Assembly: GCA_964016885.1 (NCBI GenBank)
Contig: CAXHJY010001643.1
Span: forward strand, 1 to 64,000
Source: Eledone cirrhosa
Taxonomy: Eukaryota
Direction of reading: 5' to 3'
Length of the DNA: 64,000 nucleotides
Part shown: piece after piece, positions 32,561 through 36,320 of the stretch
Numbering within the stretch: the first letter of the stretch is position 1
Layout of the letters: each line of letters opens with the position of its first letter
Notes under the pieces: model-generated
Told to the model about the DNA's origin: nothing
What the model saw: the letters and a program-made list of their open reading frames with translations, nothing else
Database searches by the model: none
Program-made: the position numbers and the translations under genes

Positions 32561-32563
<3 letters not shown>

Positions 32564-32753
32564 GGAACAAGTAAGACCCCGACGGCTGAGCTCAAGCCGT
32601 TTCAACGGCTAATTCTGTACAGAATTAGCCGTCGAAACGGCTTGAGCTCAGTCGTCGGGGTCTTACTTGTTCCTATTACCCACTCTACTACCCTAAGTAT
32701 TGAGTACTTTGGTGCGTTATGGTCCACCTGGTTCCTTACCACATTTCCTTCGT
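32561..32753 (+). mobile_element. Family B fold-back cassette (116-bp palindrome + tail)
   Basis: Near-perfect palindrome 32561-32676 containing GAAACGGCT(TGAGCTC)AGTCGTC, i.e. hammerhead GAAA-stem III-GUC. TA tracts on both sides. Confidence 0.6.
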
Positions 32754-33082
32754 TATATATATATATATATTTATATATTCGAGTGATCAGTGGCCTTTAG
32801 ACTCACCTGATCAAAGAAACAATTGTTAATACTGTAAATAAAACCCTTTCTGTACAGACGACCATGTTATTCTTCACTCTTTCACTACTGTCACTCCAAG
32901 AATAACCTACATGGGAATTCTCGCAAACTCACCACCGAACTAAGGAAACCTCTTGTTGAGTCAAACAACGCCGTACGTCAAAACTATCCATAATACAGAG
33001 TACCCACAACCTCTAACTGGATTACCTAAAACGATAACTTGTTAGTTATCCAATATATATATACACACACATGCAGTATATA

Positions 33083-33118
<36 letters not shown>

Positions 33119-33304
33119 TATATATATACATACAGTATTTTGATAATTTGACTGGTATAAGCAGTATTTAAAATCGAGTGTCACAACAACATTGCAGATA
33201 GTAATTTTAAGACGGATTCAACCACAAAGTCGCAATGAAACACATGTTAATACTTGGAATAAATCCTACTGTATAGCTTATCCTCGTTATTCTTCATTGT
33301 TTCG

Positions 33305-33341
<37 letters not shown>

Positions 33342-33399
33342 TATATATATATGTCGATTCAATTTGGATTGCCTCGGAAACATAACAGAAATGTAACAA

Positions 33400-33473
33400 G
33401 CTGTCTGATGATGTCACGACACTCGCACACAGAACAGTGTGGCCAGTGTCGCCATTGAAATATATATCACAGC
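33400..33473 (+). ncRNA. Type I hammerhead ribozyme (palindromic minimal stem III)
   Basis: GCTGT-CTGATGA-long stem II (CGACACT/AGTGTCG, CACAC/GTGTG)-GAA-ATATATAT-C^ACAGC. AUC triplet. Confidence 0.75.
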
Positions 33474-33922
33474 ATTATTATTAAAGGACTTGAACATCTG
33501 AAACTACTTCGCTTTTCCTTATTCGATATTTACTCCGTCACTCCTATGTGGAAAAAGTACGTTGAGTGCTTGAATTGAATTGCATCAATGTTTACCCTAA
33601 TATATATATATATATATTAGATACAAAGCGTAGCGTAGAATTTGAAATGGTAAAATAGTGCTTCCGCCGTATATTTGACTAAGTAAATTATCCTATTAGT
33701 TGGAGTTATAAAACCCCATAGAATATGAAAAATGGGATGGCCATTGACGTACAAGAGACACGAACCCACATATATGTATATGTGCGTGCGTGTATATATA
33801 TATATATGATTCCAGTTCCTCAGAGAAATAACAACGCAACCAGGAGCTGGACATATCGGAGTATTGACGGAGTAAAACACACTTCAACAACATGTGTACC
33901 TGTCTTTCCCACACCAATTCGG

Positions 33923-33977
33923 ACTGCCTGAAGAGGTCACAGCCAATGATGGCTGTCACCGAAATATATATAGCAGT
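33923..33977 (+). ncRNA. Type I hammerhead ribozyme (palindromic minimal stem III)
   Basis: ACTGC-CTGAAGA-GGTcACAGCCA(atga)TGGCTGTcACC-GAA-ATATATAT-A^GCAGT. All core nucleotides present, G10.1-C11.1 pair, AUA cleavage triplet. Confidence 0.85.
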
Positions 33978-34158
33978 ATATCTATAATTTATAATAAACG
34001 AAGCCAAATTTTACCTATTTGACTTAATTATTTTATATATATATATATTGACTGTTGGTTAATCAATGATAAACATTGATTATCAGCTGAATTAATTATA
34101 CAAGTATAAAATATACTGAAAGGAAAACCATCTCAAACTAAACACTGTTTTTTTTTAC

Positions 34159-35901: not shown

Positions 35902-35932
35902 AGAAGAAAAGATGGTTAAAGGAGTTCCATGT

Positions 35933-36001
35933 ATTTTATTATGCGCATTTCAAAAACAAATATCATCATGCAATAATATTTGAGTTTTCATCAGATAAAA
36001 C
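35933..36001 (-). ncRNA. Type I hammerhead ribozyme, left arm of 330-bp palindrome
   Basis: Minus strand: TTTTAT-CTGATGA-AAACTCAAATATTAT...ATGATATTTGTTTTT-GAA-ATGCGCAT-A^ATAAAA. Confidence 0.78.
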
Positions 36002-36125
36002 AGGAAGACATGATATGAAGGTTAAAGACACTTGTGGATAGTGCAGTTTTAAATCAACATATCATATGTTGATTTAAAACTGCACTATCCACAAGTGTTT
36101 TTTAACCTTCATATCATGTCTTCCT

Positions 36126-36194
36126 GTTTTATCTGATGAAAACACAAATATTATTGCATGATGAGGTTTGTTTTTGAAATGCGCATAATAAAAT
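36126..36194 (+). ncRNA. Type I hammerhead ribozyme, right arm of 330-bp palindrome
   Basis: TTTTAT-CTGATGA-AAACACAAA...TTTGTTTTT-GAA-ATGCGCAT-A^ATAAAA. Confidence 0.78.
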
Positions 36195-36320
36195 ACATGG
36201 AACTCTATTAACCATCTTTTCTTCTTATATATTATGTATACTCCAGTCCTACAAACTGTAGAGTGCTTCTTATCCGATATCTTTTATGTATTTATTGTAC
36301 TACAATAAAACTCACCTCCT

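What the first reader, a model, noticed from the sequence alone, without database searches (positions are those of the whole stretch)
33923..33977. Textbook hammerhead whose stem III is the host microsatellite sequence (AU)4
Seen: a 5-bp stem I, CUGAAGA, an 11-position stem II with one C-C mismatch, GAA, ATATATAT, A17. Known: PLE minimal hammerheads with palindromic stem III cleave as dimers by intermolecular pairing. Inference: since this stem III is shared with the different ribozyme 520 bp upstream (33400-33473, same strand), the two could form a heterodimer in one transcript. Abundant (AU)n RNA could also compete with or modulate dimerisation.
Basis: partly seen in the sequence, partly recalled or inferred. 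Interest (0 to 1): 0.75.

Follow-up and report, generated by a model that had tools for sequence, protein, structure and literature searches.

The report
Ordinary Penelope retrotransposon hammerhead ribozyme
This is a small hammerhead RNA motif, predicted to cut itself only in pairs, at the end of a known kind of jumping gene with thousands of copies in this animal genome; its AT-repeat stem belongs to the element, and pairing with the neighbouring motif is unlikely.

Summary
The hammerhead at 33923-33977 is real and as described. It lies in a 230-bp solo terminal repeat (33804-34033) of a Hydra-clade Penelope-like retrotransposon inserted in (TA)n. The genome holds 7,810 exact copies of its 3' half, and longer copies carry the reverse transcriptase and endonuclease.

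The (AU)4 stem III is part of the element, not host microsatellite. It is shared by about 49,500 hammerheads of many families. Sister families use other palindromes (GCGC, GATC, ACGT centres; over 30,000 motifs), so self-complementarity is what is kept. This supports the published dimer model.

The upstream hammerhead is a separate insertion of a related non-coding family. A type I dimer must swap stem I as well, and here one swapped stem I has a C.A mismatch beside the cut site. The heterodimer would be at most half-active, and folding predicts under 1% in-register pairing in cis. Predicted (AU)n binding is weak. About 245 such same-strand neighbours are expected by chance.

No RNA data were available and cutting is untested. 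The scan noted this class before on other DNA of this genome. Ordinary.

The parts
33804..34033 (+). Solo pseudo-LTR of a Hydra-clade Penelope-like element (family B); 5'-truncated 124 nt before the core, ending at the family's short 3' end, without the optional tail
   Evidence: Matches in all 19 other loci; 96.5% identical over 231 bp to the pLTR behind an endonuclease gene in L066 and 90.5% to that behind RT plus endonuclease in L068
33923..33977 (+). Type I hammerhead motif of family B; predicted cut after A33972 (AUA triplet)
   Evidence: Sequence, descriptor scan; 7,810 exact copies of its 3' half
33935..33960 (+). Stem II, 3 bp + C.C mismatch + 7 bp + 4-nt loop; the mismatch position is conserved across families
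   Evidence: C.C at position 4 in 44,699 of 49,509 motifs; 12 C.C and 2 C.U in 14 family representatives whose paired positions vary (whose pattern already demanded C and a pyrimidine there)
33964..33971 (+). Palindromic stem III segment (AU)4, element-encoded; predicted to form 8 bp between two copies
   Evidence: Homodimer minimum-energy fold; sister families carry other palindromes
33793..33807 (.). (TA)n target tract, 5' flank of family B insertion (overlaps the element by the ATAT microhomology)
   Evidence: Sequence
34034..34048 (.). (TA)n target tract, 3' flank of family B insertion
   Evidence: Sequence
33351..33600 (+). Separate insertion: terminal repeat plus tail of family A, a related non-coding element with a unit of about 1.3 kb; flanked by its own (TA)n tracts
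   Evidence: 1,034 exact copies of its hammerhead 3' part, tandem arrays spaced about 1.32 kb; longest open frame 102 aa; no tblastn match to the Hydra ORF
33400..33473 (+). Hammerhead motif of family A; predicted cut after C33468; weak stem II base (U.U, G.U, U-A, C.C, and A.C in this copy)
   Evidence: 85 of the first 100 listed copies have A-U where this copy has A.C (counted by eye)

Best explanation
The motif is the hammerhead of a solo terminal repeat of a Hydra-clade Penelope-like retrotransposon, inserted in a (TA)n tract, and it likely cuts only when two copies of the same family pair through their palindromic stem III and swap stem I. Shown: the element, its boundaries, copy number, parent ORF and the palindrome covariation. 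Inferred: in a full element (repeat-ORF-repeat) or between two transcripts, the two hammerheads would form a double hammerhead and trim or release unit-length RNA, probably helped by the element's protein; a lone copy would stay uncut. The RNA that was reverse-transcribed into this insertion was uncut (or re-ligated), since the copy runs through the cut site. This solo copy is probably inert. (AU)4 is probably the inherited palindrome of one branch of the clade, shared with the upstream family A by descent, and the two insertions are probably neighbours because both target (TA)n.
For: Parent element: repeat-ORF-repeat in L096, hammerheads 4.15 kb apart; 856-aa open frame in L094 with DKT, MGS, YRDD, WYNPP, CxCX5C, LVY..YIG without CCHH, CxxC-E and N..CxH; RWK upstream; these are the Hydra features in PMC8557442. 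Two alternative 3' ends: of 37 copies, 12 with tail, 19 ending in (TA)n 40-70 nt past the motif, 6 other; inverted partners. Palindrome covariation: 31,941 motifs of the same stem II class have a base other than A at position 3; 89 of the first 100 listed are palindromes (60 GCGC, 28 GATC, 1 GTAC centres, counted by eye); 28 of the first 100 have an ACGT centre. Homodimer in active topology is the minimum-energy fold, -42.4 kcal/mol, about 6 kcal/mol better than two monomers. Ends are not at the cut site: 0 of 30 copies with a longer AT run end there; at most 31 copies start there against 7,810 intact. This matches the anole PLE, where hammerhead cutting needs protein and is not needed for insertion (PMC11167929). 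Published minimal PLE hammerheads cut only as dimers and weakly (PMC4209133).
Against: No cleavage or expression data for this motif. A 2-bp stem III with a tetraloop is present in axolotl and invertebrate hammerheads that cut to some degree as monomers (PMC7229834), so a monomer route is open. Clade assignment rests on motifs and by-eye comparison with published Hydra proteins, not on a tree; Pfam, NCBIfam and PDB searches of the ORF found nothing. The long open frames belong to a sister subfamily 79-83% identical in the repeat; the inspected ORFs of the window's own subfamily are broken. Energies ignore the non-canonical A15.1-U16.1 pair and tertiary contacts. A recurrent non-palindromic variant with a G.U-tolerant centre makes up 10 of 236 motifs.
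Confidence: 0.8

Rival explanations
1. One reading: the two neighbouring hammerheads form an active heterodimer in one transcript through the shared (AU)4.
For: Same strand, 504 nt between the palindromes, identical 8-mer. One swapped helix (family A 5' strand with family B 3' strand) can form 5 pairs, two of them G.U, so A's core could in principle cut B's site.
Against: The other swapped helix has 3 pairs and a C.A mismatch next to the cut site. Active heterodimer -35.7 kcal/mol against -42.4 (BB), -38.8 (AA) and -44.8 for the two separate ensembles; in the 601-nt transcript the palindromes pair in register with probability 0.007-0.008. A's core has a weak stem II base and prefers a fold that buries core bases. 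Co-occurrence is low: 1 of 19 A-centred loci holds a B motif (1.5 kb away), 0 of 62 B-centred loci holds an A motif. About 245 same-strand (AU)4 pairs within 600 bp, and 0.8 A-B pairs from exact copies alone, are expected at random.
Confidence: 0.06
2. The motif cuts as a monomer with a 2-bp stem III, stabilised by protein or by a tertiary contact involving the conserved C.C mismatch; the palindrome is incidental.
For: C.C conserved in 90% of motifs; axolotl HHR_Amex2 with 2 bp plus tetraloop and a U.U base cuts weakly as monomer; anole PLE hammerhead is protein-assisted.
Against: The central four bases would be an unpaired loop in a monomer, yet they change in complementary pairs across families. 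No extended stem I or conserved loop for a tertiary contact was seen across families.
Confidence: 0.1
3. (AU)4 is selected to sense (AU)n RNA or to anneal with the nicked (TA)n target DNA after cutting.
For: Cutting would leave a 3' end of (AU)4A complementary to the target; (AU)4 is the commonest palindrome of the class; the window has 2,705 overlapping ATATATAT matches.
Against: Copies do not end at the cut site (0 of 30). Sister families in (TA)n use GCGC (window 35932-36195), and 0 of the 25 Hydra hammerhead rows in PMC8557442 File S2 has an all-AU stem III although nearly all target (TA)n. Predicted (AU)n binding gains 1.3-2.8 kcal/mol for n = 4-10, needs stem I to open, and is lost for (AU)20, which folds on itself.
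Confidence: 0.04

Closest known systems
Hydra clade of C-terminal EN+ Penelope-like elements and their hammerheads (Craig et al. 2021, PMC8557442; passages, Files S1, S2 and protein excerpts seen)
   Same: RWK, DKT, CxCX5C linker, no CCHH, CxxC and CxH around E and N, (TA)n insertion, type I hammerhead in the 3' repeat, inverted 5' copies.
   Different: Stem III here is an even 8-nt perfect palindrome; the published ones are mostly 4 bp around a 1-2 nt loop and none is all-AU. Stem II is longer with a fixed C.C mismatch. The unit is 4.15 kb against under 3 kb, with a 3' UTR of about 1.2 kb and low-complexity stretches in the ORF.
Minimal and palindromic-helix-III hammerheads of metazoan PLEs (Cervera and de la Pena 2014, PMC4209133; text parts 1-2 of 4 seen, supplements not seen)
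   Same: Type I, short helix I (5 bp), long helix II, palindromic helix III, mostly single truncated copies, pairs on opposite strands.
   Different: No extra unpaired base between A9 and G10.1 in family B; internal C.C mismatch in helix II; 8-nt rather than minimal helix III.
Poseidon element PAc of Anolis (Frangieh et al. 2024, PMC11167929; text parts 1-2 of 4 seen)
   Same: Two alternative 3' ends that define a tail; copies do not begin or end at the hammerhead cut site.
   Different: Other clade; tail here about 90 nt rather than 30-40; ORF starts about 200 nt after the hammerhead rather than inside it.
Metazoan non-LTR retrozymes (PMC7229834, passages; bioRxiv 10.64898/2026.07.22.740005, part 1 of 5)
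   Same: Family A (upstream) is non-coding, tandem and hammerhead-bearing, and shares tail motifs with the coding PLE.
   Different: Unit of about 1.3 kb rather than 170-450 nt; keeps the PLE tail and inverted structures. Family B is not a retrozyme.

Membership tests
Type I hammerhead ribozyme | Core CUGANGA, GAAA and NUH around three helices, open at helix I | tested here: met
   covarying pairs in helices I and II across 14 family representatives
Type I hammerhead ribozyme | Site-specific self-cleavage after H17 | not testable with these tools
   No assay and no RNA run
Type I hammerhead ribozyme | Match to an Rfam hammerhead model | tested here: not met
   No hammerhead family among hits at gathering score or E up to 5
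Dimer-type PLE hammerhead | Stem III too short as monomer and palindromic | tested here: met
   2 bp as monomer, 8 bp in predicted homodimer; compensatory palindromes in sister families
Dimer-type PLE hammerhead | Lies in the pseudo-LTR of a PLE | tested here: met
   L096 repeat-ORF-repeat; window copy 96.5% to the repeat in L066
EN+ Penelope-like element | Single ORF with RT followed by GIY-YIG endonuclease | tested here: met
   RT and GIY-YIG motifs read in one 856-aa frame in L094; by motifs only, profile libraries gave no hit
EN+ Penelope-like element | Pseudo-LTRs, optional tail, inverted 5'-truncated copies | tested here: met
Hydra clade | RWK motif and DKT in place of DKG | tested here: met
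   RRMRWKAF; ADKT
Hydra clade | CxCX5C linker, CCHH absent, CxxC and CxH around E and N | tested here: met
   CNCRNPESC, LVYGCRVK..YIG, CKLCLNE, N..CRH
Hydra clade | Insertion into (TA)n | tested here: met
   Both flanks in the window and most inspected loci
Hydra clade | Groups with Hydra RTs in a phylogeny | not tested
   Only by-eye comparison with Hydra-1_Amil, Hydra-2_Amil and Hydra-1_Obim excerpts
Non-LTR retrozyme (family B) | Short non-coding tandem unit of 170-450 nt | tested here: not met
   Family B is the end of a 4-kb coding element
Host microsatellite | Lies outside the element and varies in length among copies | tested here: not met
   Inside the element; 7,810 copies with four units against 307 with a longer run, 25 of 30 inspected having one extra unit

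The most novel reading that the evidence does not exclude
Because tens of thousands of hammerheads from many families share (AU)4, their RNAs cross-pair in trans, and stem I decides who cuts whom. Some families are fully compatible, and others form half-active pairs: the non-coding family A could cut the RNA of the coding family B but not be cut in return. Retroelement families would then regulate or sabotage each other through ribozyme heterodimers, with palindrome changes (GCGC, GATC, ACGT) as escape.
Probability: 0.08. Interest if true: 0.65.

Novelty: new member of a known kind. Interest (0 to 1): 0.2.

Why it matters
As a locus it matters little: it is one of thousands of solo ends of a known retrotransposon clade. 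As a class, the genome offers a large natural covariation set that supports the published double-hammerhead model for PLE ribozymes, and a ready panel of families that share stem III but differ in stem I for testing dimer specificity. If cross-family cutting were shown, it would give these poorly understood ribozymes a role in conflict between elements.

Tried and rejected
Rfam: no hammerhead hit. Pfam, NCBIfam and PDB sequence searches of the parent ORF: nothing. RNA evidence: no RNA holder listed, so expression and cut-site ends are untested. The three runs of unstated kind, one sample, laid on 33351-34150 gave no piece spanning the stretch and no readable empty-site allele. Idea that cutting makes the priming 3' end on (TA)n DNA: rejected, 0 of 30 copies end there. 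Idea that cutting defines the 5' end: 31 pattern matches against 7,810; of 15 inspected, 9 start there in unrelated DNA, 3 beside another family B piece, 3 are only expanded stems. Idea that A and B form one composite element: rejected. Idea that family B is very young because of 100% identical hits: not kept, since longer copies are 84-93% alike and only the best 40 of 1,640 candidates were scored. Rows dropped: the co-occurrence count used 16 of 25 and 27 of 30 loci in two of the B sets (centre motif not recognised in the rest); one search kept 14 of 19 clusters and thereby dropped a family whose intact copies (L185) have the same stem I as family B. Luense et al. 2017 on PLE hammerhead dimers is not held; only its title was seen in reference lists. 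Literature searches for hammerhead heterodimers in PLEs and for octopus PLE hammerheads listed nothing on this variant; searches likewise; unseen supplements of PMC4209133 and the Luense paper may hold it.

Full report
Observation. The motif is in the sequence as described: a 5-bp stem I, CUGAAGA, an 11-position stem II with one C.C mismatch, GAA, ATATATAT at 33964-33971 and A17 at 33972. The upstream motif at 33400-33473 has the same 8-mer and C17 at 33468. A strict descriptor finds 3 motifs in the window and none in 100 dinucleotide shuffles. Rfam sees neither.

What it belongs to. The genome is 3.0 Gb and rich in microsatellites; names on two protein hits point to an octopod (inference). 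A search with the motif and its flanks gave 1,640 candidates, of which the best 40 were scored, with matches at 95-100% identity. The shared stretch is about 33804-34033 and has (TA)n on both sides. The exact 3' half of the hammerhead occurs 7,810 times. Longer copies lead upstream through a 3' UTR into an endonuclease and a reverse transcriptase. L096 shows repeat-ORF-repeat with hammerheads 4.15 kb apart, and L094 holds an 856-aa open frame. The protein has RWK, DKT, CxCX5C, no CCHH, and CxxC and CxH around the catalytic E and N, which are the features given for the Hydra clade of Penelope-like elements in PMC8557442; it resembles the published Hydra proteins by eye. No tree was made and profile libraries gave no hit. 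The window copy is 96.5% identical to the repeat in L066 and 79-83% to those of the subfamily with long open frames. Copies end at two alternative 3' sites (12 with tail, 19 short, 6 other of 37) and often have inverted partners. The window copy is a solo repeat with the short end.

The upstream motif. It lies in a different insertion, 33351-33600, with its own (TA)n flanks. This family A has 1,034 exact copies of its hammerhead 3' part and forms tandem arrays of about 1.32 kb. The unit has no frame over 102 aa and no match to the Hydra protein. It shares short motifs in and after the tail with family B and two other families, so common descent is likely, although blastn finds no match between the two units.

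Is stem III the host microsatellite? No. It is inside the element and fixed at four units in 7,810 copies; 307 have a longer run. Of 30 of these, 25 have one extra unit and 5 a run of ten letters; all continue in element sequence. The core plus (AT)4 pattern has 49,509 matches against 190 in the control, spread over many families, and 44,699 of them have C.C at the fourth position of stem II. The same class has 31,941 motifs with another base at position 3 of the 8-mer; 89 of the first 100 listed are again palindromes (GCGC 60, GATC 28, GTAC 1), and 28 of the first 100 of 3,059 matches have an ACGT centre (the rest are mostly single changes or pattern overruns). These counts were made by eye. 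What is kept is therefore self-complementarity, in four bases that would be an unpaired loop in a monomer. This supports the double-hammerhead model published for PLE ribozymes (PMC4209133; PMC6765202; PMC6466107). None of the 25 Hydra hammerhead rows in File S2 of PMC8557442 has an all-AU stem III, though nearly all of those families target (TA)n, so target choice does not need it.

Could the two motifs form a heterodimer? In a type I double hammerhead each core takes U16.1, H17 and the 3' strand of stem I from the partner; this follows from strand order and is what the predicted homodimer shows. Family A's 5' strand can pair with family B's 3' strand (5 pairs, two G.U). Family B's 5' strand pairs with family A's 3' strand at only 3 positions and has a C.A mismatch beside the cut site. 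The active heterodimer is -35.7 kcal/mol, against -42.4 for BB, -38.8 for AA and -44.8 for the two separate ensembles. In a 33390-33990 transcript the palindromes pair in register with probability 0.007-0.008. These energies omit tertiary contacts and protein. The pairing is also not a pattern: within about 1.5 kb, 1 of 19 A loci holds a B motif and 0 of 62 B loci holds an A motif. At random about 245 same-strand (AU)4 pairs within 600 bp and 0.8 A-B pairs are expected, more with shared (TA)n targeting. Against my reading: compatible pairs do exist between other families. 7 of 21 pairs of (AU)4 representatives can swap both stems, and the family in L185 has the same stem I as B. Cross-family dimers in trans are thus possible in this genome, which is the novel case; a search for such heterodimers in print listed nothing relevant.

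(AU)n competition. Predicted binding of (AU)4 to (AU)10 gains 1.3-2.8 kcal/mol and needs stem I to open; (AU)20 folds on itself; the homodimer gains about 6. A competitor supplies no core and could only inhibit.

How it most likely works. Shown: anatomy, copy number, parent element, covariation. Inferred: two hammerheads of one family, from the two repeats of a full transcript or from two transcripts, pair and cut after A17, probably weakly and with protein help; a lone copy stays uncut. Insertions do not end at the cut site (0 of 30) and rarely start there (at most 31 against 7,810), so reverse transcription used uncut RNA from internal start sites, as shown for the anole element (PMC11167929). 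This solo copy is probably inert. No RNA run was listed, so expression is untested. The rates of NUH triplets and hammerhead numbering are from my own knowledge.

Papers seen: PMC4209133 text parts 1-2 of 4; PMC8557442 passages and supplement parts 1-2 plus search excerpts; PMC11167929 parts 1-2 of 4 and passages; bioRxiv 10.64898/2026.07.22.740005 part 1 of 5; passages of PMC6765202, PMC7229834, PMC6466107; Luense et al. 2017 title only.

Verdict. Observation confirmed, interpretation partly supported. A new member of a known kind. Earlier notes of this scan on the same genome already cover the C.C mismatch, the shared palindromes and the tail hairpins. Interest 0.2.

Noticed in passing
L096:3080-3230, L039, L148, L171; window 33533-33570: Each of the two alternative 3' ends is followed within a few bases by a similar small stem (ACUC..GAGU after the short end, GCUC..GAGC after the long end) in four families; a candidate signal for the two reverse-transcription start sites. 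Seen by eye; earlier notes of the scan report the same.
   Followed up: partly
window 33804; L002-L020, L102-L131: 5' truncation hotspot about 124 nt before the hammerhead core: 6 of 30 copies chosen without regard to 5' extent and 12 of 19 chosen by the window query start within 120-139 nt. Possibly a transcription start or a microhomology with (TA)n.
   Followed up: partly
window 35932-36002 (-) and 36125-36195 (+): Head-to-head inverted pair of hammerheads of a sister family with an ATGCGCAT stem III and C.U at the mismatch position; a very abundant family.
   Followed up: partly
window 32561-32778: Another (TA)n-flanked repeat: a near-perfect inverted repeat of about 58 bp per arm followed by a tail-like end; recurs in L002, L015, L028, L034.
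   Followed up: no
window 32800-33050 and 33160-33305: Two further short (TA)n-bounded segments with weak mutual similarity (families D14 and D20); probably more retroelement ends, so the region is a cluster of independent insertions.
   Followed up: no
L150 (G000:C1:130884000-130893900): Family A array of about 1.32-kb units that switches orientation in the middle; a long retrozyme-like non-coding element.
   Followed up: partly
L102-L131: Slippage in the (AT)4 stem III gives (AT)5, which is still palindromic; 25 of 30 inspected extended copies are of this kind.
   Followed up: yes
G000:C1:53208135-53208194 and C1:55963079-55963138: Inverted copy pairs joined right at the stem II loop of the family B hammerhead, which suggests fold-back priming at that hairpin.
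   Followed up: no
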